A model generated the notes under the pieces. The model was not told where the DNA came from. It ran no database searches and worked only from the letters and a program-made list of their open reading frames with translations. From a virus: a stretch of DNA of 64,000 bases. The translations under genes and the position numbers were made by a program. Numbering within the stretch: position 1 is the stretch's first letter; the number at the start of each line of letters is the position of its first letter. Positions 3,759 through 15,256 of this stretch are shown one piece after another. The DNA lies in the IMG/VR virus record IMGVR_UViG_3300037418_003885, positions 7,249-71,248 of that record, one strand, 5' to 3'.

Positions 3759-3772
3759 CATGTCGGGATTGC

Positions 3773-3869: not shown

Positions 3870-4502
3870 TCAGTGCTTCTGACGCCAGTTGGCGAACGGG
3901 AAGGTTCCGTCATCGGCGGTATCGGGACCATCCCAGGGCCAGTATCCACCTGACCATTTCTGATAAGCGTCCACGGACGCATTGTCCCAGCCATTCGCGG
4001 CTATCCACGCCATGATCTCCGGGGCGAAGCGCGGACGACGACGTTGCTCTCCTTTTGGCGCAGGCAAGCCGACCATGTGACAGAAGCCACGGTTCGCGCG
4101 GACCTCGTCAGCATTCTCACCTGATACTAGGACTACAGCATCGCCCACTGGGAATTCGTATCCTCCCTCCCAGTCGCCACCCGGATCGTCGCCTCCAACA
4201 GCGCCGTGAAGCAGTGGCTTTGCTGATCGAACCATGAACGGGATCGCTTCGTTTTCCTCGATGCCGATTTCGGCCAGCATGCCATAGTGGGTTTCTTCAT
4301 AGGCATCCCAGACAAACACTTCGTCATGGACGGCGAATCCACGCAGATGTTTTGTCGCTGCGAGCCGCTGCAAATCGCGCGGGCTTAATTTGGTCCACAG
4401 ACCGGCAGAAACGAGCTTTGCCTCCCGCAAGGCAAGCGCGTCGGCCTCCTGCCCCTCAACCAATGTCATCCACCGTCGCAAATCGTTTTTCGCGTCCCTC
4501 AT
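3870..4502 (-). CDS. Leader-bearing cassette protein (MRDAKNDLRRWMTLVE), function unknown
   Basis: Start reassigned to the ATG 5 nt after TAAATA (tattta 4508-4513); shared leader. Confidence 0.75.
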   Translation of the reverse strand: MRDAKNDLRRWMTLVEGQEADALALREAKLVSAGLWTKLSPRDLQRLAATKHLRGFAVHDEVFVWDAYEETHYGMLAEIGIEENEAIPFMVRSAKPLLHGAVGGDDPGGDWEGGYEFPVGDAVVLVSGENADEVRANRGFCHMVGLPAPKGEQRRRPRFAPEIMAWIAANGWDNASVDAYQKWSGGYWPWDGPDTADDGTFPFANWRQKH

Positions 4503-4539
4503 GACTCTATTTAGAGACATACCGCAAGTTGCACTCTTT

Positions 4540-4613
4540 GGGTAGAGCGCCGCACTTCAGGGTAACCCTGATCGGCGAATGGTCGCCGTCTGCCAGCGGG
4601 CGTGGATGGCGCT
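4540..4613 (+). repeat. Array element copy 3
   Basis: gggtagag..cagggtaac..gccagcgggcgtggatggcgct. Confidence 0.9.
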
Positions 4614-4623
4614 GGACCCGTTT

Positions 4624-5205
4624 TTAGTCCTTGCGGAAGCGCGAGAAGGCGGCTCGTGCAGCCAGTTCATCTGCCTTGTCTTGCGTTGAGTACTGATTCC
4701 AAAACGCGCGGAAGGAGCCTCCATAAAGCTGCCTGAAGGCTCTGATCGCCGTGGGCCAATCGCGCTTCGTAACCGCGCCGCTAATGGTTTGCTCCAACTC
4801 TGCCTGCGAGGGCGACTTGCGCTTTGTCGGTATGCGCTTCAGCCCAGCCTTGAACGCATCAACTTCTTCTTCATACCAGGACGTGCCGTTGTTCCAGTAG
4901 TTCAGGAGCGCCTGATAATTCAGTGCAACCCATTGAATGACGAGGGGGGCGTACTCGTTCTTAACTTGTTCGGGTAGTGAGTTGGCTTCCACTCTAGGCG
5001 GGCGGCTGATGGTAACCGAGAAGCTCGGCTGGTCGTTCCCAGCGCGGCCTGCAAAGTATTTTACGCGCGCCCCGTGTTCGCCTTGCGCTGTGGAAATGTA
5101 CACGGTGCCGGGAATACCGGTTCGGTTTTCCCGTAGGTTAGCCATTTCAAACAGTGGCAGATCGGCCACCGCGACCTGCTCGTTCATGATCTCGTTCGCG
5201 CGCAT
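4624..5205 (-). CDS. Leader-bearing cassette protein (MRANEIMNE), 'MANL..TGIP..HGARVK' phage family
   Basis: TAAATA at 5226-5231 upstream; stop codon 10 nt from an array element. Confidence 0.7.
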   Translation of the reverse strand: MRANEIMNEQVAVADLPLFEMANLRENRTGIPGTVYISTAQGEHGARVKYFAGRAGNDQPSFSVTISRPPRVEANSLPEQVKNEYAPLVIQWVALNYQALLNYWNNGTSWYEEEVDAFKAGLKRIPTKRKSPSQAELEQTISGAVTKRDWPTAIRAFRQLYGGSFRAFWNQYSTQDKADELAARAAFSRFRKD

Positions 5206-5323
5206 ATCAAATCCGTGTTTCGGCCTATTTATGGTCTCGTCAGGGCAGCGGACATTATTATAGCAGGCGCTTAACATTCTGTCGAGCCGACGGGCTGGGT
5301 CGAGTGACTGATCTCACTTTCTT

Positions 5324-5395
5324 TGGTAGAGCACCAATTATGGGTAACACGCGCCCGACTTGAGAAATTCAGCGTCAGCGGGCGTGGATGGCGCT
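5324..5395 (+). repeat. Array element copy 4
   Basis: tggtagag..atgggtaac..ttcagcgtcagcgggcgtggatggcgctgaa. Confidence 0.9.
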
Positions 5396-5402
5396 GAACC
5401 AA

Positions 5403-5834
5403 TTACATGATGTTCTGCCGGCTCAGCATGAGTGGAGAGTTATAGATGACGCTCTCATAGATGGCCAAGCATGCCTGCCAGTCCTGCGCACTCTCTTCCC
5501 ACTGTTCCTCTAGGAGGCCGTGGTCTGCACCGGCGATGTGAGTGAGGACGGGGAAGTCGATCATGTTTTCATCTACTTGAAAGCCGCCGTGATGGAAGTC
5601 CGCCAGCGGCATGGCAAAGATAGCGGGCCGTCCGCCAGAGTCCGCGCACTCAGCTTTGGCGAAGTACCGGGCGACACGCAGTGTACCCCAATGGTTTGGC
5701 GCCAACAGGCCAACGCTGAGAATATCTTTAACGTGCTTTGACGACGTCCCGTGGTAAAGGACAGTCGGCAAGTCAAATTCTTGCGTCTCCACCAATCGCA
5801 TCCACCGTCGCAAATCGTTTTTTGTGTCGCCCAT
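5403..5834 (-). CDS. Leader-bearing protein (MGDTKNDLRRWMRLVE) with possible ADP-ribosyltransferase-like fold
   Basis: 'LYHGTS...ILSVGL' HGT motif; TAAATA 5 nt upstream (5840-5845). Confidence 0.6.
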   Translation of the reverse strand: MGDTKNDLRRWMRLVETQEFDLPTVLYHGTSSKHVKDILSVGLLAPNHWGTLRVARYFAKAECADSGGRPAIFAMPLADFHHGGFQVDENMIDFPVLTHIAGADHGLLEEQWEESAQDWQACLAIYESVIYNSPLMLSRQNIM

Positions 5835-5870
5835 CAGCTTATTTACAACTTACCACAAGTTGCGTCCTAT

Positions 5871-5935
5871 GGGTAGAGCGAGCACTTCATGGGTAACTGG
5901 CGCTGATTCGCCTGCCAGCGGGCGTGGATGGCGCT
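5871..5935 (+). repeat. Array element copy 5
   Basis: gggtagag..atgggtaac..gccagcgggcgtggatggcgct. Confidence 0.9.
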
Positions 5936-5958
5936 AAACTAGAGCTTCAACCGGTCTC

Positions 5959-6528
5959 TTAGGGTTTTGCCTTCTGATTAGCACGAGCCATATTTGCTCG
6001 TCTGGCAGCCGCACGCGCCTTTCGCTCATCCGCTTTTTGTAAGAGATATGGCAGATGTTGGCGCATGGGCTGTTGGTGCACCGGCGCAGATGAAGAACCC
6101 TCGACGTCCTCGGGGGGTGCGGGCGAAATCTCTCGCTTGTCGTCTTCGTTCATCTGTTGCTTCCTATATCGCATTGTCTCCGTTGGTCCAGCCTTGTAAA
6201 CTGAGATTACCCTAATCCACGTGTCTCCGGAAGTGTCGGAGAGATCGTCCTCAATTTCTTGATAGATTACCACCAAGAGGCTGCCACTTGCATCCGGGGC
6301 GATCAGTTTGATCCGCTCTTCACCCTCCTCGAAGATAACATCGAACTGACCGAGCGCCGAGAACAGTAGCGGGCCTCCATCCTCCAGAGCCAACCCGTGA
6401 TTTATTCGATTTGAAGCATCTTTGGCATTCTGCCATCCGATATGAAATACGCGCCCTTGAAAGGTTACCGTCTTCCAAGTCTCTCGTTGAGCCGGGGCAG
6501 CTTCGCGTAGGATGTCGCAGTATCGCAT
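5959..6528 (-). CDS. BrnT-like toxin domain with N-terminal leader (MRYCDILRE) and basic C-terminal tail
   Basis: 'W..AK.ASN..NHGL', 'LLVVIY', 'IRVISVYKA' match the BrnT pattern; TAAATA 4 nt upstream (6533-6538). Confidence 0.65.
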   Translation of the reverse strand: MRYCDILREAAPAQRETWKTVTFQGRVFHIGWQNAKDASNRINHGLALEDGGPLLFSALGQFDVIFEEGEERIKLIAPDASGSLLVVIYQEIEDDLSDTSGDTWIRVISVYKAGPTETMRYRKQQMNEDDKREISPAPPEDVEGSSSAPVHQQPMRQHLPYLLQKADERKARAAARRANMARANQKAKP

Positions 6529-6549
6529 CGGATATTTAGCCTGATTCGC

Positions 6550-6623
6550 GGGTAAATCCCACGGATCATGGGTAGCCCGCATCCGACCTGCGAAATTTAG
6601 CGCCAGCGGGCGTGGATGGCGCT
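6550..6623 (+). repeat. Array element copy 6
   Basis: gggtaaat..atgggtag..ttagcgccagcgggcgtggatggcgct. Confidence 0.9.
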
Positions 6624-6856
6624 GAGCGTCGTCATCGGCGCGCGATCTCCATCATCTCTCGCATCGAGGCTGGGCCGCCAAACTGACTTTGAAAACGCCG
6701 GGCGTATGTCGCAAGCGGCACCCCACCACGCCCCGCAGCTATAATCGCTTCGGCCTGCTGCGCTTTCTGCCAACCAACCCCTCGGTAGTCGTCTGTGCGC
6801 GTAAACAAGACACCCTTACGATTTAACACAAAAGGATCAAACCCCCGGAGGAATTT

Positions 6857-6881
6857 AGCGTCAGCGGGCGTGGATGGCGCT
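6857..6881 (+). repeat. Array element copy 7 (core only)
   Basis: agcgtcagcgggcgtggatggcgct, overlapping the stop codon of the 6881-7441 gene. Confidence 0.85.
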
Positions 6882-7441
6882 TAATTACCCGCCAGCTTCT
6901 TATTTTTGGGGGGTTGATCGCCGTTGGCTGCGGCTTGCCGCGCAAGGTAGGCTTGCCGCTTCTCCTTCTGCTGCTTAATCTTGGCAGCAATGCGATCTCC
7001 CCACCGTCCAGCCTGCTGGACGGGTTTCGCCTTGAGCTTGGGCGTTGTGTCCTCGTTCATTCCTACCTCCCTAATATCATTCGGTGTTGCTTTCCAGACT
7101 GAAATCAGGCGGGCGGCAGGTTCTTCCGCAGGTTCTGCTTCATCATCATGTACCCACTGGCAAATCACAACCAGCAGTACGTTGCTCTCTCCATATCCCA
7201 CAACCTTGTCCACCTCCTGACCCTGCTCATCGGTCTGAACGACGAAGCGATTGTCGGGATTGGCGATCACTGGAATGCCGTCGCGGAGCCTCAAGCCGTC
7301 GTGTTTGCCGGGATTCGCGGCTTCCTTATCGACCGTCCACCCGACGTTAATGGGGCCATACGGCGTCTCAACTCGTTCCCAATGCTCGGGCAGCAACGGG
7401 GAGACCGCTTCGATAATTTCACGCATCGTGGGGTAGCACAT
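6881..7441 (-). CDS. Second BrnT-like protein with leader (MCYPTMREIIE)
   Basis: 'W..DKEAAN.GKHDGL', 'LLVVIC', 'RLISVWKA'; TAAATA 5 nt upstream (7447-7452). Confidence 0.65.
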   Translation of the reverse strand: MCYPTMREIIEAVSPLLPEHWERVETPYGPINVGWTVDKEAANPGKHDGLRLRDGIPVIANPDNRFVVQTDEQGQEVDKVVGYGESNVLLVVICQWVHDDEAEPAEEPAARLISVWKATPNDIREVGMNEDTTPKLKAKPVQQAGRWGDRIAAKIKQQKEKRQAYLARQAAANGDQPPKNKKLAGN

Positions 7442-7467
7442 GTTTTTATTTACCCCTGTCGATGGAA

Positions 7468-7482
7468 GGCGTGGATGGCGCT
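7468..7482 (+). repeat. Array element partial copy
   Basis: ggcgtggatggcgct only. Confidence 0.7.
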
Positions 7483-7508
7483 GGCCTAAGGTATTGGTGT
7501 GGTTTTTT

Positions 7509-7581
7509 TGGTAGAGCACGCAGTCATGGGTAGGCCGAACTCTAACAAGATCGGCCAGCGTCAGCGGGCGTGGATGGCGCT
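7509..7581 (+). repeat. Array element copy 8
   Basis: tggtagag..atgggtag..cagcgtcagcgggcgtggatggcgct. Confidence 0.9.
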
Positions 7582-7585
7582 GAAA

Positions 7586-8077
7586 CTAGGTTTTTTCAGG
7601 CGTCAAGACGCTATGCGGATCAACCAACATAACCTCAGAACCGGTCATCCAGCCGCTGGCTAAGCCGCGCAGCGCCTCAGCAAGGTCTGGTCGATAGTAG
7701 GATTGGCCACCGAACGCAGCGCGACAAAGCCGTTCAAAGTTGTCCTGACCGTGGAAGGTTAGATCGATCATCTCGACGTCGGCGACGGTGCGAAAACGCA
7801 GCGTGCGTTCAACACCGGGATCATGGCCTGCGCGATGTAGGCCACGCGCCTTCCATCTGCCGGTTTCGTATGTGGTAAAGAAGGCGGGGCCTCGCGGGAT
7901 ATCAAAAGATTGAACGGCATCAGTGACATGAAACAGGATGCTGTCCTTGGGAAGCACGGTTTTTGCTATACGGGCGACGGCGCGGACAAGCTTCGCTTGT
8001 GCTGTCGGGTCTAGTGCCTCCCGCCCCTCAACCAACCGCAGCCACCGTCGCAAATCGTTTTTCGTGTCGCCTGTCAT
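7586..8077 (-). CDS. Leader-bearing protein (MTGDTKNDLRRWLRLVE), possible ART-like fold
   Basis: Shared leader; 'LFHVT...PAFFT...EVML' pattern. Confidence 0.65.
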   Translation of the reverse strand: MTGDTKNDLRRWLRLVEGREALDPTAQAKLVRAVARIAKTVLPKDSILFHVTDAVQSFDIPRGPAFFTTYETGRWKARGLHRAGHDPGVERTLRFRTVADVEMIDLTFHGQDNFERLCRAAFGGQSYYRPDLAEALRGLASGWMTGSEVMLVDPHSVLTPEKT

Positions 8078-8310
8078 GATTGTAAAAATCGGATTAATTC
8101 AAATAGTTCGGCCAAACATGTATTTCGGATGTGTGCGCCGTCGCCGGTTATACTAGCTGAGCGTAGCCAATCAGCGAGCCGGCGCGCCTCTGCCAGTACA
8201 GCAGCCGGATCATCTGCGGCTTGATTCCATAGATCGGTCACGCGCTGATCCAACCGCCTTCGCAGCAGCCTATAATCGGGCTCTACTTCAAATAATTCAT
8301 GGTATCTCAC
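8074..8310 (-). CDS. Small protein with leader-like start (MRYHELFE)
   Basis: Overlaps both neighbouring ORFs (translational coupling). Confidence 0.65.
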   Translation of the reverse strand: MRYHELFEVEPDYRLLRRRLDQRVTDLWNQAADDPAAVLAEARRLADWLRSASITGDGAHIRNTCLAELFELIRFLQS

Positions 8311-8533
8311 GCGCCAATTCCTCGTCGGAGCGCATCGCGCCGCGCTGCTGCATAGCCCGAAGTTCCTGATCGGACGGACAGTCGATGCCGCGCAGTGCGC
8401 GCAAATAATTGCCTATTGCTGCCTCGATCGCGTCCTCAGCAACGCCTCGCGCACGGAAAACGCTGCACAAGGCGCGATAACGAGCTTCGGGTAGCCCCAG
8501 CCGGCCCGCTACGGATTCCTCATTCATCAACAT
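8297..8533 (-). CDS. Small hypothetical protein (MLMNE)
   Basis: TAAATA 5 nt upstream (8539-8544). Confidence 0.6.
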   Translation of the reverse strand: MLMNEESVAGRLGLPEARYRALCSVFRARGVAEDAIEAAIGNYLRALRGIDCPSDQELRAMQQRGAMRSDEELAREIP

Positions 8534-8637
8534 AACCCTATTTAGCTGGGCGGAACTTTAACAGGCGGGCGATAAAAATCAAGACTTACTAGCGATGGTT
8601 GTATTTGCAGCGGACATAGCTGCAATCTCCCGCTTCC

Positions 8638-8710
8638 TGGTAAAGCAAACATTTACGGGTAAACGTGATGGATGGACAATCGGCCGAATTCAACGGGCGT
8701 GGTTGGCGCT
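8638..8710 (+). repeat. Array element copy 9
   Basis: tggtaaag..cgggtaaa..caacgggcgtggttggcgct. Confidence 0.8.
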
Positions 8711-8798
8711 GAACTCAGTTTATTTCCTGCGTCAAGTTGTTGACAAAACCGTACATTTTGATACGATCGGCCAATCGGGGCAAGCATCTTACGGGAGT

Positions 8799-9050
8799 AT
8801 GAACAGGATGAGTGATCGGTGGCACACAAAACAACTTTCGACCGGCAACCTGTTGATTATGGCATCGGAAACGCTGGTTGTTGGCAGCATCGTCCAGAAT
8901 GGCGGTAGATGGTTAGTTGAAGTCCCCTTCTGCGGAACCAATCTGACGTTTGACGCCCCGGATTATACATCATGTCTCGCGTTCATCGAAGGCGTCGAAC
9001 AAACTATCGCTGTGATTTCTGCTGCTGTGGCATTGCGGCAAAAGCCGTGA
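8799..9050 (+). CDS. Hypothetical protein
   Basis: GGAG RBS; sigma70-like TTGACA (8740)..TACGAT (8762) upstream. Confidence 0.5.
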   Translation: MNRMSDRWHTKQLSTGNLLIMASETLVVGSIVQNGGRWLVEVPFCGTNLTFDAPDYTSCLAFIEGVEQTIAVISAAVALRQKP

Positions 9051-9080
9051 CGCCTCAGTCCGGGTCACACGCCGATTTGC

Positions 9081-9144
9081 TGGTAGATTAGGCCGTTTGT
9101 GGGTAACCCGCTCGCGGCTTGCGCCAGCGGGCGTGGATGGCGCT
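9081..9144 (+). repeat. Array element copy 10
   Basis: tggtagat..gtgggtaac..gcgccagcgggcgtggatggcgct. Confidence 0.9.
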
Positions 9145-9152
9145 GAAGCGAT

Positions 9153-9251
9153 CTAGACGACGGCAGGATAGGTGCGCCCCACAAACTGATCCAGTACCGG
9201 CTTTTCGGCCATATGAACCAACCGCATCCACCGTCTTAAGTCGCTTTTATG
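9153..9251 (-). pseudogene. Remnant cassette: leader with almost no payload
   Basis: Reads HKSDLRRWMRLVHMAEKPVLDQFVGRTYPAVV* between two elements; no upstream ATG and the promoter motif has decayed (TAAACG). Confidence 0.7.
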
Positions 9252-9270
9252 ATCGTTTAGTGCGGTTCGC

Positions 9271-9343
9271 TGGTAGATCACACGCACTATGGGTAACCAG
9301 CATCCGACTTGAGGAACCCGGCGCCGGGGGCGTGGATGGCGCT
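9271..9343 (+). repeat. Array element copy 11
   Basis: tggtagat..atgggtaac..gcgccgggggcgtggatggcgct. Confidence 0.85.
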
Positions 9344-9349
9344 TGGGGG

Positions 9350-9835
9350 TCAGCGCCGTGCGGGCGGTTCAAATGCCAGAGCCTGTTCGATCGTCCAGGG
9401 ACACTGTGCCGGAAATCGCGAGCGGGCGACACCGGTCTCCGTCGCGGCGGCTCGCACTGCATGCGGATATGCCTCCGCGTATAGCTTGTCCTGATAATTC
9501 TTCAGACTTGGTGTGCTGGTGAGGAGAGCAATAATTTGGCGTTGCTGCTCCAGAACAGTCAGCGCCCAGCTTCGGGAGGCGCGACCGGGCTGGACCTGAT
9601 ATTTCAGCAGGTGTTGTAGCAACCGTACAAAATGATTCCCCAACTCGCGACGGTCGCGAATAGTCATTTCCGTCAGATACTGGACAAGATTTTCGCGATC
9701 AACCGCGTCCAATTTTCCGGCCTTCAGAAGGGCAATCTGCTCAAGCATCCACTGATGCTCGTCGGCTTCATATGACGAACGCGAGCCGCCGCCAGCGATG
9801 TCGATAAGCGTCCGCATGTCGGTCTTGTCGTTCAT
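9350..9835 (-). CDS. DUF29-family protein with N-terminal leader (MNDKTDMRTLIDIA)
   Basis: YE.D...W..EQ..LL, LLQHLLKYQ.QP, SRSW, FP.QCPW motifs; TAAATA 5 nt upstream (9841-9846). Confidence 0.85.
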   Translation of the reverse strand: MNDKTDMRTLIDIAGGGSRSSYEADEHQWMLEQIALLKAGKLDAVDRENLVQYLTEMTIRDRRELGNHFVRLLQHLLKYQVQPGRASRSWALTVLEQQRQIIALLTSTPSLKNYQDKLYAEAYPHAVRAAATETGVARSRFPAQCPWTIEQALAFEPPARR

Positions 9836-9946
9836 AAGCTTATTTAGGCGCACCTCGCGCAATTGTCAATTAACGCCTTCATCGTGCAACCTCCGGTTAC
9901 GCCGATGAGCCAGTCCCATGGCAGAGCGCACGCACGGTATGCGATG

Positions 9947-10144
9947 TCAATAATATGCAACCAAAGGATCGACGCCTGCTTCCGCGCACCGTTCAGCAAT
10001 TTCGCGCAGGATTTCCCGCTTCCGCTCCGTGCGCCGCGAGCCGCTGTTGCGATACAAGTCGTCGTCCGCATCGGTGATCCCTAACGCGGCCCGTCTGGCG
10101 TCGATCTCCTTCGCCAACTCGTAGTGGTCAATTTCGTCGGACAT
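9947..10144 (-). CDS. Small hypothetical protein
   Basis: ORF with plausible RBS; 'RNSGSRRTERKR' motif. Confidence 0.55.
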   Translation of the reverse strand: MSDEIDHYELAKEIDARRAALGITDADDDLYRNSGSRRTERKREILREIAERCAEAGVDPLVAYY

Positions 10145-10319
10145 CTTTCTTCCCAGCGAATAGTGAGATATCGCCGCCCTCGTCGGCCACGCGCTTCGTA
10201 AGATAATTCAAATCCAGTTGGCCGCCAAGCCGCTTGAGAAGTCGCGTGAACGAGTGCAAGGCGAGTCCCATAGCGCCGTCATCCGTCGTGTGATATTCAG
10301 GCGATGAACTAAATATGTC

Positions 10320-10754
10320 ATGGATATACGCTCTGCCATGAAGCTCGTTGAAGGTCTATACGACGATGAGCCAGATTCCGACGCACCCTGGTCCTTTGGG
10401 TGGTGGATATGGCCGAACGGCTCAGTGGACGAATGTCCAGATGAGGGCACCCATGTCGATCTGGCGTGGGACGTGCTAGACCGCCAGGGCGACCCGGACG
10501 ACGCGATTCACATTATGCTGGAGAAAGGCGCCATCCGCATCGCCACGTTCCACGGCTCCAATGAAATGAACATCAACTTCGACTCCCGGCACGTGACGCC
10601 TGTCGCCCGTAAATCACTGGCGCGCCTGCTTGTGCAAACCCGCTCCTGGTTCATGCGCTACCACTTCGACGACGCTAGCTTGCATGGAACTACCGGTCAT
10701 GTTTTGCGCATCTTAAGCTACCGGGAGGCAATGGCTGTCGCGCGCGGCAGGTAA
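10320..10754 (+). CDS. Leader-bearing protein (MDIRSAMKLVE)
   Basis: TAAATA at 10310-10315, 4 nt upstream. Confidence 0.75.
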   Translation: MDIRSAMKLVEGLYDDEPDSDAPWSFGWWIWPNGSVDECPDEGTHVDLAWDVLDRQGDPDDAIHIMLEKGAIRIATFHGSNEMNINFDSRHVTPVARKSLARLLVQTRSWFMRYHFDDASLHGTTGHVLRILSYREAMAVARGR

Positions 10755-10774
10755 TCGAGGTCTCATCCGCGTCA

Positions 10775-11233
10775 CTAACGCCACCGCTCTGGGTCACGCA
10801 CACGGCCTTCCTGATCTAGGATCGAATCAAAATCGGCAACACGTGCCGGCCCGTCTTCCACGCCGCGTCGTAAGGCTGCTTCCACTCGGTGCGTGCCGTC
10901 CCACAAAACCAGTTTGCCATTGTGCCGGTAGACGAAGGGCAGGTCGGCGTCAGAATGGTCAATGTAATGTTGCACGCGCGCCGGATAAACTGAATGTTCG
11001 ATTGCCACTAGATCAGGATAGTGCACAGTCTCGACAGTAGCGCGACGTTCGGCGTACTTGATGGCGTTGAGCTTGATCCCACTCATGCGCTGATTGTCGC
11101 CGGGCAGTGGACCCCACGGGTATCGATCATGGCCCCAGAACGCGAGATGATGCGGCTCACGATCAGCTTTATCCCACCGGCTCTCCACCACTGTCATCCA
11201 CCGTCGGATATTGCTTCGAAGATTGTCTACCAT
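10775..11233 (-). CDS. Leader-bearing protein (NLRSNIRRWMTVVE) with ParB/Srx-like domain
   Basis: 'PFVYRHNGKLVLWDGTHRVEAA' DGxHR motif; TAAATA 6 nt upstream. Confidence 0.7.
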   Translation of the reverse strand: MVDNLRSNIRRWMTVVESRWDKADREPHHLAFWGHDRYPWGPLPGDNQRMSGIKLNAIKYAERRATVETVHYPDLVAIEHSVYPARVQHYIDHSDADLPFVYRHNGKLVLWDGTHRVEAALRRGVEDGPARVADFDSILDQEGRVRDPERWR

Positions 11234-11264
11234 AGCTAATATTTAGCGGCAAAATGCGCAGATC

Positions 11265-11321
11265 ATGGGTAACCCCATCCGATCAAGGGGGTGTCACCTG
11301 TCAGCGGGCGTGGATGGCGCT
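11265..11321 (+). repeat. Array element copy 12
   Basis: atgggtaac..gtcagcgggcgtggatggcgct, running directly into TAAATA (11321-11326). Confidence 0.9.
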
Positions 11322-11331
11322 AAATATGCGC

Positions 11332-11667
11332 ATGGTGCACAGTATGCGATCTCTGATCACGCTCGTAGAGGCGGTGAACCGCCAATCCGACATCGAAGCC
11401 CTGCCCGACCAGTGGCAGCAGGTGATTCTACAAAAGGTGGTCGAGTACGTGCGCTATCTCGCATCATCGAACCGCTCGTGGCATCGCGGGGCAGCAGACT
11501 ACCATCGCGATCGCAATACCAACAAGGACGCGGATGACGCGGTCGAGGCATGGTGGGAGGCGGGCGCGCCGGTCCCTGAGATCGATGGACTGGGCATTCC
11601 CAGCGACGGGGCAGCCTTCAATGCATGGGCACGATCTTATATCGGATTGGAGCCGAAAGATCAGTGA
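11332..11667 (+). CDS. Leader-bearing protein (MVHSMRSLITLVE)
   Basis: ATG 5 nt after TAAATA; flanked by two elements. Confidence 0.7.
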   Translation: MVHSMRSLITLVEAVNRQSDIEALPDQWQQVILQKVVEYVRYLASSNRSWHRGAADYHRDRNTNKDADDAVEAWWEAGAPVPEIDGLGIPSDGAAFNAWARSYIGLEPKDQ

Positions 11668-11672
11668 TTCCT

Positions 11673-11746
11673 TGGTAAATCACGCAGGCTATGGGTAACC
11701 TGCACCCGGCCTAATACGCCGGCAGCCAGCGCGCGTGGATGGCGGT
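11673..11746 (+). repeat. Array element copy 13
   Basis: tggtaaat..atgggtaac..gccagcgcgcgtggatggcggt. Confidence 0.85.
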
Positions 11747-11856
11747 GAAAGGCGCGGGCTCCTCGTCATCCACGCCCGCAAGAAGGTCTTCTTCGTGAAG
11801 AGTCCGCTTGTCGTCGGCGCACGCCTATGTCTAAATATGAGGCATTGGAGTACGGC

Positions 11857-12456
11857 ATGAAGTGGACCGATATCAAGAGCCGGCTTGACGAGAACCCGCG
11901 CTCTATTCCCCAGCCGAAGGCGACGCGCTACGACGATCCGGTCTACAACAAGCGCTTTGCGGCGGACAAGTTGGCGCGGCAGACGGAAGTGATTGAGCAA
12001 CGCCCCGATTCGCGCATCATTCGGACCGGCGACGGCCATCGCGGCTGGATTATGCTCTACAATGACGCCCAACAAACGGCAGATTATGTGGTGCAATACG
12101 CGACGAGGCGTTGGCCGTTTCTCAATTCCCGCACCATCACGCAGGTGGAAATCTGGCGCGATCCGACAAGCCCGTTCGCGGCCGGCATCACGAAGCGCAT
12201 GTTCTTTGATTACCTCCCAGCGCGCTACGGGGCGATTATGAGCGACCGCGTCCAAACCCCGCAGGGCCACGATTTTTGGCAGACGAGGCTGAGAGATGCC
12301 GTGCAGCTTGGCCTTCACGCTGGCGTTGTTGGCTTGAACGAGAAGCAGGTGCGGTGGTTTGATCCGGCCGCCGGTCAGACACTCGCACAGTGGTTGGCCG
12401 CGACATATGGACCGAAGCACCATTTTGAGGCGATACGTTATCTGATCACCACGTGA
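11857..12456 (+). CDS. Protein with leader-like start (MKWTDIKSRLDE), possible GNAT-like fold
   Basis: TAAATA at 11832 and GGAG RBS; 'GITKRMF..IMSDRVQTPQG..FW' resembles phage GNAT-like proteins. Confidence 0.6.
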   Translation: MKWTDIKSRLDENPRSIPQPKATRYDDPVYNKRFAADKLARQTEVIEQRPDSRIIRTGDGHRGWIMLYNDAQQTADYVVQYATRRWPFLNSRTITQVEIWRDPTSPFAAGITKRMFFDYLPARYGAIMSDRVQTPQGHDFWQTRLRDAVQLGLHAGVVGLNEKQVRWFDPAAGQTLAQWLAATYGPKHHFEAIRYLITT

Positions 12457-12539
12457 TGCTGCGGCGTGGCGCCTCGCGACCTACGCGCTGCCGGTGTGAC
12501 CGCTGTGGTAGACGAAAACACAGGAGATATCATAACCGT

Positions 12540-12851
12540 ATGATGAAGATTAACGAGCCTATGCTCCAGGCGGCGCACCGCCACTCGCTCGACAACCGCC
12601 AGAGTCTGGCGGGCGGGGGTGAATGCGGCTGCTTCCACTGCCTGCGCACCTTTCATGCCAGCGAGGTGACCGCCTGGGGTGGCCGAGGTGCCAGCACCGC
12701 CGTCTGCCCGTATTGTCACTATGACACCGTGCTGTCGGGCGCTGTTGATCCCATCGACGCGGGGTTTCTGAGGCAGATGCAGGCACGGTGGTTCGGTGGC
12801 AGGGGCACGCCGCTGAATCTTGCCGCAACGTCGCCTGCCAAGGCCGGCTAG
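12540..12851 (+). CDS. Small Cys-rich protein, copy 2
   Basis: Paralog of 3468-3758, including ~55 bp of upstream DNA. Confidence 0.8.
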   Translation: MMKINEPMLQAAHRHSLDNRQSLAGGGECGCFHCLRTFHASEVTAWGGRGASTAVCPYCHYDTVLSGAVDPIDAGFLRQMQARWFGGRGTPLNLAATSPAKAG

Positions 12852-12862
12852 GCGCTTGGGTC

Positions 12863-12937
12863 TGGGTAGAGCAAGCTAGTCACGGGTAACCCGCACCGAC
12901 CTTCGTGCGCCGGCTGTCAGAGGGCGTGGATGGCGCT
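12863..12937 (+). repeat. Array element copy 14
   Basis: tgggtagag..acgggtaac..gtcagagggcgtggatggcgct. Confidence 0.9.
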
Positions 12938-12938
12938 G

Positions 12939-13577
12939 TTACTTTTTGCGCAAGATGAAAAAGATATCCTTTTGCGGGTCGGCGCTGTTGAAGCTCCACA
13001 ACTCAGGATCAATATCCGAATCTCTGGGGCCATGATCGATCAAGGCGTCGAGCGCGATCACCTTATTCGCAGAAACATCGACGACGTCAGTCGCAAAATC
13101 CGGCTCACGACTGAGCGACGCCCAAAGCCGCCGCGCACCGAGATACTGATTATAATCACAGATGATCGTATATCCGTGCCTCTCTATAAAGTAGCGCAAC
13201 ATTGTCTTAGCGATACCTGAGCCAATCAGCGATTTGGCTGCGCCTGCCGCATAGGATCGATAGAGCCGAGGATATTTTAAGCGATGTCCGAGTTGTCTCT
13301 CGCCGCGAAAGTTGATGAAAAACACGATATCATAAACCTGAACCGGCGTTCCGGTCCGTTGTTGGGTCTTTGTTACCAGACGGCCGACCTTCCAGGCATT
13401 TTCTACACGGTGGCGTAGCACATCATAAACAACCGGATTGCCCGCAAACTGAATTGTGTCGATCTTCCGCCAGTCCGCGTCCGCCACCGCTTTAGAAAAT
13501 TCAGCAATGTTCGCTGGGTCATAATCCCAGTTGCCATGCTTAGCGATCGGCGCCTCAACGATTTGTTCCCAACGCAT
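12939..13577 (-). CDS. Leader-bearing protein (MRWEQIVE), GNAT-like
   Basis: 'LIGSGIAKTMLRY..IICD..QY.GARRLW' resembles the acetyl-CoA-binding GNAT motif; stop codon 1 nt from an element. Confidence 0.6.
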   Translation of the reverse strand: MRWEQIVEAPIAKHGNWDYDPANIAEFSKAVADADWRKIDTIQFAGNPVVYDVLRHRVENAWKVGRLVTKTQQRTGTPVQVYDIVFFINFRGERQLGHRLKYPRLYRSYAAGAAKSLIGSGIAKTMLRYFIERHGYTIICDYNQYLGARRLWASLSREPDFATDVVDVSANKVIALDALIDHGPRDSDIDPELWSFNSADPQKDIFFILRKK

Positions 13578-13756
13578 ACTGTGCCTCGATCCTCAACCCA
13601 TACGCCGCGCTTAAGGATTGTTTACCATCAAACTCAAGAGCGTAGCAGGTCTCTCGGCTTTGGCAAGAGATTTCCGGGCCTTGTGGCCACGGCCATAAAT
13701 AATTTTGGACAATCGCTGCCCCTCTTGCTACCGTAAGGGGCCTATCGAGAACCGTC

Positions 13757-14032
13757 ATGACCGCCATCGATTGTATAGCGCTGAGCCTGAGCGTTCCACT
13801 ACCCGAGCCGCTGCGTGCCATAGACGTTGTTAGGCTCGTTGAAGCGGACGCTGTCGATGCGCGCTCGCGGGTGATCCTTGAGGCATTCTTAACCGAGATT
13901 AGCCAGGACCGCATCGCTGAGGCGGTCTTGGAAGGCAGCCTGTCGTTTGGCCAGATCGTGCATGTCGCCGAGGCCAATGGTCTTCGAGATACGCCCACGG
14001 CTCGTTGGAGCCGCGAGATGAGCGGATCATGA
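13757..14032 (+). CDS. Putative antitoxin partner of the AbiEii-like toxin
   Basis: Small ORF whose stop overlaps (ATGA) the start of the nucleotidyltransferase. Confidence 0.55.
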   Translation: MTAIDCIALSLSVPLPEPLRAIDVVRLVEADAVDARSRVILEAFLTEISQDRIAEAVLEGSLSFGQIVHVAEANGLRDTPTARWSREMSGS

Positions 14033-14688
14033 ACTGGCCGAATGCGCAGTCGGCTCGTCTTTTTGGCCTGATACAACCTGCATTGCAGGCGCTACCGAAC
14101 GATCTATCCTGGTCTTTGGGTGGCGGAACGGCGCTGACAATGTGGCTTGATCATCGCTTGAGTCACGATATCGATTTGTTTTTTGAATCGGCCAGAGCAT
14201 TACGCTTGCTGTCCCCGAATCGGAATCCTCTGACAAAGGCGATCACACCCAAAACGCAGCAGCCGGGCAATTATTTGAAGTTTGAAGTCGCGGGGGTCGG
14301 AGAGATCGACATCCTGGTAATACGGGACTGGACGTCAACACCGACCAAGAAAGTGACCGTTGGGTTAGTGCCCATGGATGTCCAGACACCTGCTGAAATA
14401 CTCGCCCGTAAAATCGCCTACTGCGCAACGAATTTCCAGGTACGAGATTTTTTTGACCTAGCGGCGACCGCTCTGTTTGCGACGCAGGAGTTAGTCGCAT
14501 TGCGCCCTCCCCTGACCGGCAAGCGTGCGGTGTTGGCTCAACGCTGGAAGGTCCTTGAGCCGCAAATCGAGCAATCCGTTAAGGCGGTCACTCCGACGGC
14601 GCGGGGCTCTACAGTTGTGCCGCACATGCGTTACGTGATTGGGCGCCTACTGGGCATCGTCTCGAAGAACGCGCTGGGTAGCTCCTGA
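14029..14688 (+). CDS. AbiEii/AbiGii-family nucleotidyltransferase toxin
   Basis: 'LGGGTAL...HRLSHDIDLF', 'EILARK', 'RDFFDL' motifs. Confidence 0.85.
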   Translation: MNWPNAQSARLFGLIQPALQALPNDLSWSLGGGTALTMWLDHRLSHDIDLFFESARALRLLSPNRNPLTKAITPKTQQPGNYLKFEVAGVGEIDILVIRDWTSTPTKKVTVGLVPMDVQTPAEILARKIAYCATNFQVRDFFDLAATALFATQELVALRPPLTGKRAVLAQRWKVLEPQIEQSVKAVTPTARGSTVVPHMRYVIGRLLGIVSKNALGSS

Positions 14689-14743
14689 TTGCAGGCTTGG
14701 CGGCATTCGAAATCAGCCGCCAGCCCCTTCCTGGGCGCTGACC

Positions 14744-15256
14744 CTACGAGTCTTTGGCGGAGTTCCACCCAATCAGCCCGCAAATGCCCTCGACGGTGGC
14801 TGGCGCATACCCAATGAAACGTCCATTTCGAAAGACATCCTCACCATCGGCTCCAGCCCTAAGCTCATATTCTCGGCTGGTGAACACGGCCACTTTGTCT
14901 CCGCCTCCGACATAGAACTCCGACATGACCTGCTGGTAAGCGTGACGCAGGGACGCAAGATCATGAAACGCAAAGCTCGACAGTCCGCGCTCTGGACTGT
15001 AACACCACAGCTTGCTCTTGGGGTCTTGCAGTGGCTTTCGCAACAACGATGATGTCTTTGCCAATTCCACGGCTTCTTGGTGGTCCGCCGTCCATGTGCC
15101 AGCATAACAACTGAAGTTCCTCTGGAGGTCCCCATCCGGGTCAGCCGTATCTCGCAAAAAATACATTGGGGCGGCTCCCGGTCGTTCAGGCTTCTTAGCT
15201 TGCGCCTCAACCAACTGCATCCACCGTCGTAACTCATTTGTCGTATCGCTGATCAT
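14744..15256 (-). CDS. Leader-bearing protein (MISDTTNELRRWMQLVE)
   Basis: Shared leader; TAAATA 5 nt upstream (15262-15267). Confidence 0.75.
   Translation of the reverse strand: MISDTTNELRRWMQLVEAQAKKPERPGAAPMYFLRDTADPDGDLQRNFSCYAGTWTADHQEAVELAKTSSLLRKPLQDPKSKLWCYSPERGLSSFAFHDLASLRHAYQQVMSEFYVGGGDKVAVFTSREYELRAGADGEDVFRNGRFIGYAPATVEGICGLIGWNSAKDS

What the first reader, a model, noticed from the sequence alone, without database searches (positions are those of the whole stretch)
5403..13577. Cassette payloads are toxin/enzyme domains without their usual antitoxins
Seen by motif: two BrnT-like RNase domains (5959-6528, 6881-7441) with no BrnA gene, DUF29 (9350-9835), HGT/ART-like proteins (5403, 7586, also 38332), a ParB/Srx-like domain (10775), GNAT-like proteins (11857, 12939) and, outside the array, a RelE/YafQ-like domain (62890). 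Each follows a leader. In both BrnT-like proteins the domain is followed by 'MNED' and a basic tail, which could be a second x-x-E cleavage site. Inference: host toxin-antitoxin domains have been repurposed as delivered effectors for host takeover, anti-defence or competition between phages.
Basis: partly seen in the sequence, partly recalled or inferred. Interest (0 to 1): 0.72.

Follow-up and report, generated by a model that had tools for sequence, protein, structure and literature searches.

The report
Leader-tagged toxin-fold cargo genes in phage
A fragment of a giant phage carries a row of small genes for toxin-like enzymes that share a short N-terminal tag resembling the one phage T4 uses to load proteins into its head, so they are probably injected with the DNA, though nobody has measured this.

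Summary
The window is 64 kb of a 71-kb virus record rated 19% complete. Its single-strand DNA-binding protein is closest to the jumbo phages PA5oct and Atu_ph07.

Payload calls, checked one by one:
- Confirmed: DUF29, and an ART-PolyVal ADP-ribosyltransferase at 38332.
- Likely: two paralogous BrnT-like RNase domains, a ParB/Srx-like domain at 10775, and a GNAT-like fold at 11857.
- Weak: a YafQ/RelE-like domain at 62890.
- Leads only: ART-like 5403 and 7586, and GNAT-like 12939.

No BrnA is found in the record. The shared 'MNED' followed by a basic tail is real.

Nearly all payload genes start 3-7 nt after a TAAATA box. Their leaders end in [L/I/V/M]-x-Glu. The leader peptide recurs in another viral contig with different codons.

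Best reading (0.6): these are T4-style capsid-targeted cargo, cut by the head protease and injected. The domain set matches that of known injected 'polyvalent proteins', but here each domain is a solo tagged protein. This is a new variant of a known kind. Packaging and cleavage are untested, and no head genes lie on the fragment.

Earlier notes of this scan report the same theme on other DNA.

The parts
5403..5834 (-). 143-aa protein. Long leader MGDTKNDLRRWMRLVE (5787-5834), then a small domain with a YHGT motif. Possible ART-fold (Tpt1/PARP-like NAD lobe).
   Evidence: Weak hits: Pfam PTS_2-RNA E 0.0045 and PARP E 0.016; PHROG RNA 2'-phosphotransferase E 0.045; NCBIfam E 0.0028. Atlas leads point to Tpt1-like, Arr and Tox-ART-HYD1 clusters. 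The ART-PolyVal model gives no hit. AlphaFold without an alignment failed, pLDDT 34.
5959..6528 (-). 189-aa BrnT-like protein. Short leader MRYCDILRE (6502-6528); BrnT-like domain about 6178-6435; MNED at 6142-6153; basic 61-aa tail at 5962-6144.
   Evidence: Pfam BrnT_toxin E 9.6e-8, 32.7 bits (cut-off 34.5), profile 1-77/77. PHROG 4399 'ribonuclease toxin' E 1.6e-4. PDB 7vd7_A E 0.029. Domain charge -6, tail +4. Coordinates checked.
6881..7441 (-). 186-aa paralogue of the BrnT-like protein. Leader MCYPTMREIIE (7409-7441); domain about 7079-7339; MNED at 7049-7060; basic 56-aa tail at 6884-7051.
   Evidence: 33% identity to 5959 over 136 aa, E 1e-15. Pfam BrnT E 0.0044. Alignment. Domain charge -13, tail +10.
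6632..6829 (-). Small ORF (65 aa) between two repeat elements, lying between the two BrnT-like genes. It has no leader and no TAAATA box, and its coding status is uncertain.
   Evidence: No Pfam family. Codon score 0.07 against a mean of 0.22 for the training genes.
7586..8077 (-). 163-aa protein with the long leader (8027-8077) and an FHVTD motif. Possible ART/RES-like NAD-utilising fold. It is the last gene of a three-gene cassette.
   Evidence: No Pfam or PHROG family. Atlas features point to a cluster in which 20% of members carry ART-PolyVal, and to an AcrIF11 ART cluster. The Atlas model matches RES NAD+ phosphorylases at TM 0.65 by query.
8074..8533 (-). Two 78-aa ORFs (8297-8533 and 8074-8310) that overlap each other and the start of 7586. 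Both have short Glu-ended N-termini (MLMNE.., VRYHELFE..). No known family.
   Evidence: TAAATA lies only before 8533.
9350..9835 (-). 161-aa DUF29 protein with a degenerate leader, MNDKTDMRTLIDIAGG (Asp in place of Glu).
   Evidence: Pfam DUF29 E 2.3e-38. Homologues of 42% identity in 29 Ralstonia phage records (sizes listed 5.9-11.7 kb) align from residue 20 onward, so they lack the leader.
10775..11233 (-). 152-aa protein with the long leader (11183-11233) and a ParB/sulfiredoxin-like domain carrying the motif LWDGTHR.
   Evidence: 26 homologues found. 5 of 17 aligned members hit ParBc_2 and 5 of 17 hit PF23719. PDB profile hits are sulfiredoxin and SbnI. The domain also occurs fused to portal proteins, to an ART and to an XkdF-type protease. 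Pfam ParB_N gives no hit.
11857..12456 (+). 199-aa protein with short leader MKWTDIKSRLDE and a GNAT-like fold. Belongs to a family with no Pfam model (PHROG 1349).
   Evidence: PHROG 1349 E 5.5e-14. 19 homologues, most starting with M-R-Y/W/F-x-E/D-L/I. AlphaFold pLDDT 80. Best structural matches are GNAT enzymes: Foldseek E 6e-3; VIA Z 7.7, rmsd 3.1 over 114 residues.
12939..13577 (-). 212-aa protein with short leader MRWEQIVE. Function unknown. The GNAT-like reading rests on a motif only.
   Evidence: PHROG 15502 E 1.3e-11, function unknown. Two close homologues only. hhalign against the 11857 family: probability 0.7%, E 0.08. No PDB match.
38332..38817 (+). 161-aa ADP-ribosyltransferase of the ART-PolyVal family with short leader MRYAELITE. 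Lies outside the array.
   Evidence: Pfam PF18760 E 1.6e-14, 55.3 bits, cut-off 31.2. Homologous stretches lie in 14 GenBank phage records, one annotated 'large polyvalent protein'. TAAATA lies 4 nt before the ATG.
62890..63507 (+). 205-aa protein: 12-residue N-terminus MFLFE.., a YafQ/RelE-like domain (62926-63174), and an unassigned C-terminal half of about 100 aa.
   Evidence: YafQ_toxin 16.6 bits, E 5e-4 for this record, profile 3-84/88, cut-off 30. PDB 4nrn_A and 2otr_A E 0.05-0.07, aligned end to end. TIGR00053 E 0.014.
3015..15335 (.). Array of 14-15 copies of an intergenic repeat (core GCGGGCGTGGATGGCGCTG on the + strand) that separates the cassettes.
   Evidence: families D1, D2 and D4.

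Best explanation
The region is a hypervariable locus of head-cargo genes in a jumbo phage with T4-type core genes. Each small gene is transcribed from its own late-type TAAATA box. Each encodes an unrelated payload behind a short N-terminal propeptide. Two leader forms occur: a lineage-specific 16-17-residue form (..D/N-L/I-R-R-W-M-x-L/V-V-E) and a 8-12-residue T4-like form (M-R-x-x-E/D-L/I-x-E).

By analogy with the T4 capsid targeting sequence, the leader would dock the protein to the scaffolding core of the prohead. A gp21-type prohead protease would then cut after the Glu, and the mature protein would be ejected into the next host with the DNA.

The payloads would act at once on host RNA, proteins, NAD or DNA, for takeover or counter-defence. 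They are BECR-fold RNases of BrnT and YafQ type, ADP-ribosyltransferase-like proteins, a ParB/Srx-like domain, GNAT-like proteins and DUF29. No antitoxin would be needed, because the proteins are made late in a cell that is about to lyse and are sequestered in proheads. The BrnT-like proteins may also lose their basic C-terminal tail at M-N-E|D.

Shown here: the folds (to the degrees listed), the leaders, the promoter-like boxes, and the absence of BrnA in the record. Inferred: late transcription, packaging, cleavage, injection and targets.
For: 1. Promoter-like box. TAAATA-N(3-7)-ATG occurs 16 times against 0.93 expected; 0 of 100 shuffles reach 16. In a nearly identical scan (spacer 3-8 nt, ORFs of at least 60 aa), 13 of 15 such ORFs carry [LIVMF]-x-E within about the first 21 residues. 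Among other ORFs of at least 100 aa the figure is 17 of 101, and among random 18-residue windows it is 21%.
2. Shared leader, unrelated bodies. Six proteins share only the long leader; their bodies are unrelated.
3. Peptide-level conservation. The same peptide heads proteins in another viral contig (L123, record G001), encoded with different Arg and Leu codons: AGA CGA / CTT against CGA CGG / TTG. Conservation is therefore at the peptide level.
4. Leader-tagged ARTs elsewhere. In L123 three leader-tagged proteins are ARTs by Pfam: ART-PolyVal at 46.6 and 31.3 bits, and ADPrib_exo_Tox at 44.6 bits. This mirrors T4 Alt, a packaged ART cut at both ends by gp21 (passages of PMC9026906).
5. Leader is an add-on. 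The 11857 family carries the short leader in most of its 19 homologues, which come from other metagenomic contigs. DUF29 homologues in small Ralstonia phage records lack it.
6. Protease in relatives. The two relatives tested, PA5oct and Atu_ph07, each encode a T4 gp21-type protease (Peptidase_S77, 85 and 77.5 bits).
7. Head-associated homologues. The 10775 domain also occurs fused to portal proteins, to an ART and to an XkdF-type head protease.
8. Matching repertoire. ART, GNAT, ParB/Srx and RelE-fold RNases are the repertoire described for injected polyvalent proteins (passages of PMC5512222).
9. MNE motif. 'MNE' occurs 4 times in 19 leader proteins against 0.16 expected by composition. Two are inside N-terminal leaders and two are at the BrnT domain/tail boundary.
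10. No BrnA model hit in the record.
Against: - No prohead protease, capsid or portal gene is on the 71-kb record, nor on the three contigs that share the leader. All are fragments, so the link to a head protease rests on relatives.
- The long leader is absent from PA5oct and Atu_ph07. No virion proteome therefore covers it.
- The mature payloads are not uniformly basic, unlike the T4 internal proteins: calculated pI ranges from 4.7 to 9.8.
- The DUF29 leader has Asp where cleavage would need Glu.
- The leaders within this phage are near-identical at the DNA level. Gene conversion, not selection, may explain their similarity inside the array.
- The BrnT-like proteins score below Pfam's cut-off. 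By my alignment to 7vd7_A, 5959 has Asn for the Lys of the K-H pair, and 6881 has Ala and Asp at the positions of the Phe and Glu. PMC10714953 (passages) reports these residues as needed for RNase activity in a BrnT relative.
- The ART, GNAT and YafQ calls for 5403, 7586, 12939 and 62890 are weak.
Confidence: 0.6

Rival explanations
1. The leader is not a capsid-loading signal. It could be a shared N-terminal helix with another role, such as binding a common phage or host partner, localisation, or efficient translation of near-leaderless late mRNAs. Alternatively it is simply part of the recombining junction block of the cassettes. On this reading the payloads act inside the producing cell late in infection, for example in shut-off, exclusion of competing phages or nucleic-acid turnover, and are not injected.
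For: The ATG lies only 3-7 nt from the TAAATA box, so the first codons may be constrained at the RNA level. Leaders inside the array share codons and flanking DNA (families D5, D6, D13), as expected for gene conversion. No head genes are on the fragment.
Against: The peptide is kept with different codons in another phage. The leader ends in [LIVM]-x-Glu followed by a small residue in almost all cases, which an RNA-level constraint does not explain. AlphaFold models the leader region of 11857 as disordered, pLDDT under 50 for residues 1-29. The payload repertoire and the portal and protease fusions of the 10775 domain point to the head.
Confidence: 0.17
2. These are ordinary phage-borne toxin-antitoxin or toxin-immunity modules whose partners are simply unrecognised. 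Candidate partners are the small ORFs at 6632-6829, 8074-8310 and 8297-8533, or the C-terminal tails. They would serve in addiction, abortive infection or exclusion of other phages.
For: The 7586 gene overlaps two upstream small ORFs in one cassette, in the order used by Xre-RES-type modules (that order is recalled, not tested). A 65-aa ORF lies directly downstream of the BrnT-like gene 6881. BrnT-BrnA fusions exist in nature (passages of PMC11980606).
Against: The BrnA model gives no hit at E<=10. The small ORFs match no Pfam family. 5959 has no small ORF after it. Most cassettes hold one gene. Two of the small ORFs themselves begin with leader-like, Glu-ended N-termini. The phage shows no sign of lysogeny in this window.
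Confidence: 0.1
3. The payloads are packaged, but many are catalytically dead binders or decoys rather than active toxins. For example, they might be toxin-fold proteins that soak up host antitoxins, RNAs, NAD-derived signals or defence proteins.
For: Catalytic positions are only partly kept in the BrnT-like pair. The acetyl-CoA loop motif of GNATs is not conserved in the 11857 family. The known T4 cargo IPI* is an inhibitor, not an enzyme (passages of PMC3012670). An inactive RelE-fold domain in the Mu head protein MuF is described (passages of PMC5512222).
Against: The His of the K-H pair is kept in both BrnT-like proteins. ART-PolyVal 38332 keeps the His of the family's H-Y-D site in its FHGT motif; H38 is invariant, and the site is described. 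I could not check the other catalytic residues.
Confidence: 0.13

Closest known systems
Phage T4 internal proteins IPI, IPII, IPIII and Alt, with their capsid targeting sequence and gp21 processing
   Same: A short N-terminal propeptide is the only thing shared by otherwise unrelated small proteins, and the locus is hypervariable. The cargo is injected with the DNA and serves counter-defence or takeover. Alt is an ADP-ribosyltransferase and is trimmed at both ends (passages of PMC3012670 and PMC9026906). The leaders here likewise end in hydrophobic-x-Glu. That the T4 cleavage motif is L/I-x-E is recalled; the papers' passages speak of processing residues 8 and 10 and of a Glu-ended motif.
   Different: A second, longer leader (RRWM-x-LVE) is not found in the two characterised relatives tested. 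The payloads include TA-type RNase folds (BrnT, YafQ-like), a ParB/Srx domain and GNAT-like folds, rather than small basic inhibitors. The cassettes are separated by a 30-66-nt repeat. Packaging and cleavage are unproven, and no gp21 gene is on the fragment.
Polyvalent proteins of phages and conjugative elements (Iyer et al. 2017, PMC5512222; passages read)
   Same: The domain repertoire is the same: ART-PolyVal, GNAT, ParB/Srx-type domains and RelE-fold (BECR) RNases. Delivery during invasion is proposed for both. Solo versions next to late genes are mentioned there. 38332 is a Pfam member of ART-PolyVal.
   Different: Polyvalent proteins string 2-15 domains in one giant polypeptide, often with a zincin peptidase to cut them apart. 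Here each domain is a separate small protein with its own promoter-like box and leader. The BrnT and YafQ families are not among the PBECR families named in the passages I read; 'BrnT' occurs 0 times in that text.
MuF- and portal-fused phage toxins
   Same: Toxin domains ride into the capsid attached to a head component (fusions of RNase domains to MuF and portal are described in passages of PMC5512222). Homologues of the 10775 domain are fused to portal proteins.
   Different: Here there is no MuF or portal carrier domain, only a leader of 8-17 residues. The MuF polymorphic-toxin paper itself was not read (recalled, and named in scan notes).
BrnT/BrnA type II toxin-antitoxin system
   Same: The BrnT-type fold is matched end to end. 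The His of the K-H pair is kept.
   Different: There is no BrnA. The scores lie below Pfam's cut-off. The proteins have an N-terminal leader plus linker of about 30 residues and a basic C-terminal tail of 56-61 residues. They have a late-type promoter box rather than an autoregulated operon.
Inner-body and ejection proteins of phiKZ-like giant phages
   Same: Many head-internal proteins are trimmed after Glu by a T4-related protease (S/A-X-E motif; passages of PMC9026906).
   Different: This phage groups with PA5oct, Atu_ph07 and RaK2-like phages by its ssDNA-binding protein. The residue two before the Glu is hydrophobic (L/I/V/M), as recalled for T4, not S/A.

Membership tests
T4-type capsid-targeted internal proteins (CTS cargo) | Short N-terminal propeptide, shared by otherwise unrelated proteins, ending in hydrophobic-x-Glu | tested here: met
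   13 of 15 TAAATA-ATG ORFs carry the motif; six long leaders have R-R-W, V and E invariant.
T4-type capsid-targeted internal proteins (CTS cargo) | gp21-type (Peptidase_S77) prohead protease in the same genome | tested here: inconclusive
   No hit in the 71-kb record (19% complete) or in three related fragments. Present in PA5oct and Atu_ph07.
T4-type capsid-targeted internal proteins (CTS cargo) | Late expression | tested here: inconclusive
   The TAAATA box lies 3-7 nt before the ATG, 16 times against 0.93 expected. That this is a late promoter is inferred from the T4 late-promoter core (recalled). No transcript data.
T4-type capsid-targeted internal proteins (CTS cargo) | Presence in virions, removal of the leader, ejection into the host | not testable with these tools
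   Needs virion mass spectrometry or reporter fusions.
BrnT toxin (Pfam PF04365) | Score over the curated cut-off of 34.5 bits | tested here: not met
   32.7 bits (5959) and 17.7 bits (6881). A database record of the same protein carries a precomputed PF04365 label.
BrnT toxin (Pfam PF04365) | End-to-end match of the domain | tested here: met
   Profile 1-77/77. PDB 7vd7_A residues 2-92 of 94.
BrnT toxin (Pfam PF04365) | Residues reported as needed for RNase activity (Lys-His pair, a Phe, a C-terminal Glu; PMC10714953 passages) | tested here: inconclusive
   By my alignment: 5959 has N-H, F, E; 6881 has K-H, A, D. The equivalence of positions is my inference. The original BrnT paper is not held.
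Type II toxin-antitoxin module (BrnTA) | Adjacent cognate antitoxin gene (BrnA) | tested here: not met
   PF14384 gives no match at E<=10 in the record. Neighbouring small ORFs match no family.
ART-PolyVal (Pfam PF18760) | Score over the cut-off of 31.2 bits | tested here: met
   38332 scores 55.3 bits and 53.9 bits in the six-frame scan. For 5403 and 7586 the same scan gave no hit, so for those two the feature is not met.
ADP-ribosyltransferase fold (5403, 7586) | Fold recovered by profile or structure search | tested here: inconclusive
   5403: Tpt1/PARP hits at E 0.003-0.05 in three libraries, Atlas leads, model failed. 7586: Atlas model matches RES NAD+ phosphorylases at TM 0.65 by query. 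No PDB sequence hits.
DUF29 (Pfam PF01724) | Score over the cut-off of 22.5 bits | tested here: met
   132 bits, E 2.3e-38.
ParB/sulfiredoxin superfamily (10775) | Match to a ParB-type model and the D-G-x-H-R motif | tested here: inconclusive
   ParB_N gives no hit. 5 of 17 family members hit ParBc_2, best E 1.1e-5. The family profile's top four PDB hits are sulfiredoxin x2 and SbnI x2, E 0.16-1.8. D, G, H and R are invariant in 17 sequences.
GNAT acyltransferases (11857) | GNAT fold | tested here: met
   Model pLDDT 80. Nearly all of the top 50 rows in both searches are GNAT enzymes; best Z 7.7, rmsd 3.1, 114 residues aligned; Foldseek E 6e-3. Z under 8 is middling by the tool's own note.
GNAT acyltransferases (11857, 12939) | Acetyl-CoA pyrophosphate loop motif (Q/R-x-x-G-x-G/A; recalled) | tested here: inconclusive
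   In the 20-sequence alignment the Gly of the candidate loop varies (G/N/D/H). 12939 has G-S-G-I-A, but its fold was not tested.
YafQ/RelE toxins (62890) | Score over the cut-off (30 bits for PF15738; 87 bits for TIGR00053) | tested here: not met
   15.2-16.6 bits and 15.9 bits. The alignments are nevertheless end to end, also to PDB HP0892-type toxins.
Polyvalent proteins | Two or more unrelated effector domains in one polypeptide | tested here: not met
   Each payload here is a single-domain protein of 84-216 aa.

The most novel reading that the evidence does not exclude
Protease-gated pro-toxins that replace the antitoxin by compartment. The BrnT-like RNases, and perhaps other payloads, would be made as inert precursors. 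The N-terminal leader tethers them to the prohead core. The oppositely charged basic C-terminal tail masks the acidic RNase domain, acting as a built-in antitoxin. The head protease cuts both off (after the leader Glu and at M-N-E|D) only inside the sealed capsid. An active, antitoxin-free toxin therefore exists solely as injectable cargo. The array with its repeat elements would be a shuffling device that lets the phage swap such cargo.
Probability: 0.2. Interest if true: 0.75.

Novelty: new variant of a known kind. Interest (0 to 1): 0.55.

Why it matters
If these proteins are packaged, this phage lineage delivers the effector toolkit known from giant polyvalent proteins as a set of small, individually tagged and individually exchangeable proteins. 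The set includes RNase folds otherwise known as toxins of bacterial toxin-antitoxin pairs.

That gives three things:
- a simple, readable signature (late box, Glu-ended leader, payload) for finding injected effectors in uncultured phages;
- a natural test case for how a phage handles a toxin without an antitoxin;
- candidate counter-defence or takeover enzymes (ADP-ribosyltransferases, RNases, a ParB/Srx-type domain) for testing against defence systems in laboratory strains.

It also suggests that the T4 head-targeting principle reaches into the PA5oct, Atu_ph07 and RaK2-like jumbo phages.

Tried and rejected
Searches and models that gave nothing useful:
- Near-identical DNA in GenBank phages: none.
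- tblastn against GenBank phages with 5959, 11857 and 10775: no match.
- A scan of viral contigs for a 16-nt core of the repeat: only single, apparently chance matches; none of the 80 loci printed (of at least 116 matched) has more than one copy. The array was therefore not found elsewhere.
- Single-protein locus searches for 5403 and 7586: nothing.
- Locus search with the 11857-family alignment in viral contigs: nothing.
- The same alignment in metagenome contigs: 9 short loci. I scanned 8 of them; 2 of those 8 have the TAAATA box before a leader-bearing homologue.
- Word-based homologue search for 5959: found only itself.
- AlphaFold of 5403 without an alignment: unusable, pLDDT 34. No fold search was run on it.
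- PDB sequence searches for 10775 alone, DUF29, 5403, 7586 and the 12939 alignment: nothing meaningful.
- PADLOC: no hit for any of the ten payloads.

Readings considered and dropped:
- WWE domain for the 11857 family. It rested on one PDB hit, the PARP14 WWE domain at E 0.058. I dropped it because the structure model matches GNAT enzymes instead.
- The Pfam name 'VapB-like antitoxin' (PF23719) for the 10775 family. The model does not hit 10775 itself. The family equally hits ParBc_2 and carries the DG-x-HR motif.
- Homology between 12939 and 11857: not shown (hhalign probability 0.7%).

Complex prediction of the 7586 product (residues 20-163) with the upstream 8074-8310 product returned 'no answer'. 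This is no evidence either way.

Literature. Two full-text searches listed no paper describing capsid-targeting leaders on BrnT- or YafQ-type toxins. I judged this from the listed titles and abstract starts only. One search for 'DUF29' found a single unrelated paper. A search for '7VD7' found none. Supplements of papers were not opened; those of PMC5512222 may list solo BrnT- or YafQ-like phage proteins.

Full report
WHAT THE DNA IS

The window is bases 7249-71248 of a 71,248-base virus record that CheckV rates 19% complete. That implies a genome of several hundred kilobases. The window has no near-identical relative among GenBank phages. Its gp32-like single-strand DNA-binding protein is 41-44% identical to those of the jumbo phages PA5oct and its kin, Atu_ph07, and RaK2-like Yersinia phages. 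Most other large ORFs match no PHROG family.

THE ARRAY AND THE LEADERS

Between about 3.0 and 15.3 kb, 14-15 copies of a 30-66-nt repeat separate small genes, most of them on the minus strand.

Six products share a 16-17-residue N-terminus, with R-R-W, V and E invariant, and nothing else. Other products begin with a shorter M-R-x-x-E/D-L/I-x-E type of N-terminus.

The hexamer TAAATA lies 3-7 nt before an ATG 16 times in the window. The expectation is 0.93, and 0 of 100 shuffles reach 16. In a nearly identical scan (spacer 3-8 nt, ORFs of at least 60 aa), 13 of 15 such ORFs have [LIVMF]-x-E within the first ~21 residues. The background is 17 of 101 other ORFs and 21% of random 18-residue windows. 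The leaders are related to one another, so these are not 13 independent events.

The long leader is kept as a peptide, not merely as DNA. An alignment-based scan of viral contigs found it in three other records. There the Arg-Arg-Trp-Met-x-Leu-Val-Glu core is written with other Arg and Leu codons.

That related contig (L123) carries further long- and short-leader proteins. Three of them are ADP-ribosyltransferases over Pfam's cut-offs: ART-PolyVal at 46.6 and 31.3 bits, and ADPrib_exo_Tox at 44.6 bits.

THE PAYLOADS, ONE BY ONE

DUF29 (9350-9835). Certain, at E 2.3e-38. Its function is unknown. I found no literature on it beyond one incidental mention. Homologues of 42% identity lie in 29 Ralstonia phage records (sizes listed 5.9-11.7 kb). 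They align only from residue 20 onward, so the leader is an add-on. This leader has Asp where the others have Glu. For T4, an Asp at the last position of the targeting sequence is reported to block processing but not targeting (passages of PMC9026906). Whether that applies here is speculation.

The two BrnT-like proteins (5959-6528 and 6881-7441).
- They are paralogues: 33% identity, E 1e-15.
- The first matches the whole Pfam BrnT model at E 9.6e-8, but at 32.7 bits it lies just under the 34.5-bit cut-off. The second scores 17.7 bits.
- PHROG 4399, 'ribonuclease toxin', matches the first at E 1.6e-4.
- A profile of the pair finds a 94-residue PDB 'toxin' (7vd7_A) as its best hit, aligned end to end at E 0.029.
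- A BrnT relative needs a Lys-His pair, a Phe and a C-terminal Glu for RNase activity (passages of PMC10714953). By my alignment, 5959 has Asn-His, Phe, Glu and 6881 has Lys-His, Ala, Asp. Activity is possible but not assured.
- Both proteins have about 30 extra N-terminal residues (leader plus linker).
- Directly after the domain, both carry the identical tetrapeptide MNED, followed by a basic tail of 56-61 residues. The domains are acidic (charge -6 and -13) and the tails basic (+4 and +10).
- 'MNE' occurs four times in the 19 leader-type proteins against 0.16 expected by composition. Two occurrences are inside N-terminal leaders (4624 and 8297 products) and two are at the BrnT domain/tail boundary. 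T4 Alt is likewise trimmed at both ends by gp21 (passages of PMC9026906).
- No BrnA model hit exists anywhere in the 71-kb record at E<=10.
- The only nearby unexplained ORF (6632-6829) has no family and a weak coding score.

ART-like proteins.
- 38332-38817 is a member of ART-PolyVal (55.3 bits, cut-off 31.2). It has homologous stretches in 14 GenBank phage records, one annotated 'large polyvalent protein'.
- 5403 is supported only by concordant weak hits to the NAD-binding lobe of RNA 2'-phosphotransferase and to PARP, in three libraries at E 0.003-0.05. Language-model neighbours are labelled Tpt1-like, Arr and Tox-ART-HYD1. Its structure model failed.
- 7586 has no profile hit. The Atlas's own model of it resembles RES-family NAD+ phosphorylases (TM 0.65 by query). 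Feature neighbours include ART-PolyVal (20% of one cluster) and AcrIF11 clusters.
- I treat both 5403 and 7586 as leads.

ParB/Srx-like (10775-11233).
- Pfam ParB_N gives no hit.
- An exhaustive HMMER search found 26 relatives.
- In an alignment of 17, the residues D, G, H and R of a D-G-x-H-R motif are invariant.
- 5 of the 17 hit ParBc_2 and 5 hit PF23719.
- The family profile's four best PDB hits are two sulfiredoxins and two SbnI proteins, all aligned on that motif at weak E-values of 0.16-1.8.
- The same domain sits C-terminal to portal domains in two proteins, next to an ADP-ribosyltransferase in one, and next to an XkdF-type head protease in one. This ties it to phage heads.
- Several small relatives begin with leader-like N-termini.

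GNAT-like (11857-12456 and 12939-13577).
- The 11857 family has no Pfam model. It has 19 homologues of 41-69% identity, most beginning M-R-Y/W/F-x-E/D-L/I..E.
- With that alignment AlphaFold gives pLDDT 80, and the first 29 residues are disordered.
- Foldseek (best E 6e-3) and the Foldseek-independent search (best Z 7.7, rmsd 3.1, 114 residues) both return lists made almost wholly of GNAT acetyltransferases. These include the TA toxins AtaT and TacT.
- The Z values are middling by the tool's own note, so this is a fold-level call. The glycine of the usual acetyl-CoA loop is not conserved.
- For 12939 nothing beyond a motif resemblance was obtained.

YafQ/RelE-like (62890-63507). Three libraries give the same weak, end-to-end answer: YafQ_toxin at 15-17 bits, TIGR00053 at E 0.014, and the Helicobacter HP0892-type toxins in PDB at E 0.05. 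A C-terminal half of about 100 residues is unassigned.

HOW IT MOST LIKELY WORKS

The combination matches what is described for the T4 internal proteins and Alt:
- a late-type box;
- a short, disordered, Glu-ended leader that is portable across unrelated bodies and conserved as a peptide between phages;
- payloads from conflict-type enzyme families;
- homologues fused to head proteins.

[quoted passage not shown] In T4 the first 10 residues suffice for loading, and the head protease then removes them (passages of PMC9026906).

The two relatives I tested, PA5oct and Atu_ph07, each encode a gp21-type protease. One is therefore expected in the missing four-fifths of this genome. None is on the fragment.

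The domain set is that of the injected 'polyvalent proteins' (passages of PMC5512222). Here it is unbundled into separately tagged proteins.

I put this reading at 0.6. Packaging, cleavage, injection and targets are all inferred. The rivals are listed with their evidence in their own section: a leader with another role, unrecognised partner proteins, and inactive decoys.

NOVELTY

The principle is known. Three things appear new relative to the papers I could search:
- TA-type RNase folds (BrnT, YafQ-like) as solo leader-tagged cargo without antitoxins, possibly with a second, C-terminal propeptide;
- a second, longer leader type;
- the setting in this jumbo-phage group, with repeat-bounded cassettes.

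Notes of this scan report the same general theme on other genomes. I did not test those notes, and they did not change my scores.

Noticed in passing
window 7586-8533: One cassette holds three overlapping genes (8297-8533, 8074-8310, 7586-8077) with a single TAAATA box before the first. Every other cassette seen holds one gene. The two small products have no known family and begin with Glu-ended leader-like N-termini.
   Followed up: partly
window 3412-3758 and 12506-12848: About 340 nt are duplicated 9.1 kb apart on the + strand (80-95% DNA identity). They encode a Cys-rich protein (C-x-C...C-x-x-C pattern, PHROG 30788, function unknown; 83% amino-acid identity between copies), one copy near each end of the array.
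   Followed up: partly
window 3870-4502; L123 4658-5149 and 9107-9523: The payload of the first long-leader gene carries a motif V-F-V-W-D-A...H-Y-G that recurs in two leader-tagged proteins of the related contig. This is a conserved cargo family of unknown function.
   Followed up: no
L123 2463-9029: In the related viral contig the leader-tagged genes are interleaved with two copies each of a DNA methyltransferase-like gene and a transposase-like gene (roughly 336-339 aa), plus a third transposase-like gene. This assignment is by eye from the translations only.
   Followed up: no
proteins P0036, P0040, P0042, P0050 (homologues of window 10775-11233): The ParB/Srx-like domain occurs after portal domains (two proteins), before an ADP-ribosyltransferase (one), and between a histidine phosphatase and an XkdF-type head protease (one). 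In P0040 Pfam labels the stretch 'VapB-like antitoxin' (PF23719), a name that sits oddly with the DG-x-HR motif.
   Followed up: partly
window 9350-9835: The closest GenBank phage relatives of the DUF29 payload are in small Ralstonia solanacearum phage records (RSS1 type; 29 records, 42% identity). This may hint at the host range of the gene pool.
   Followed up: no
window 34572-36017: A 481-aa GIY-YIG/HNH-type homing endonuclease (PHROG 314, E 5e-29) lies in a stretch of lower G+C (0.50 against about 0.57).
   Followed up: no
window 28678-29439: A 253-aa protein of no known family, with TAAATA 4 nt before its ATG and the N-terminus MHIIDLFE-AP. It is a further candidate leader-tagged cargo outside the array.
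   Followed up: no
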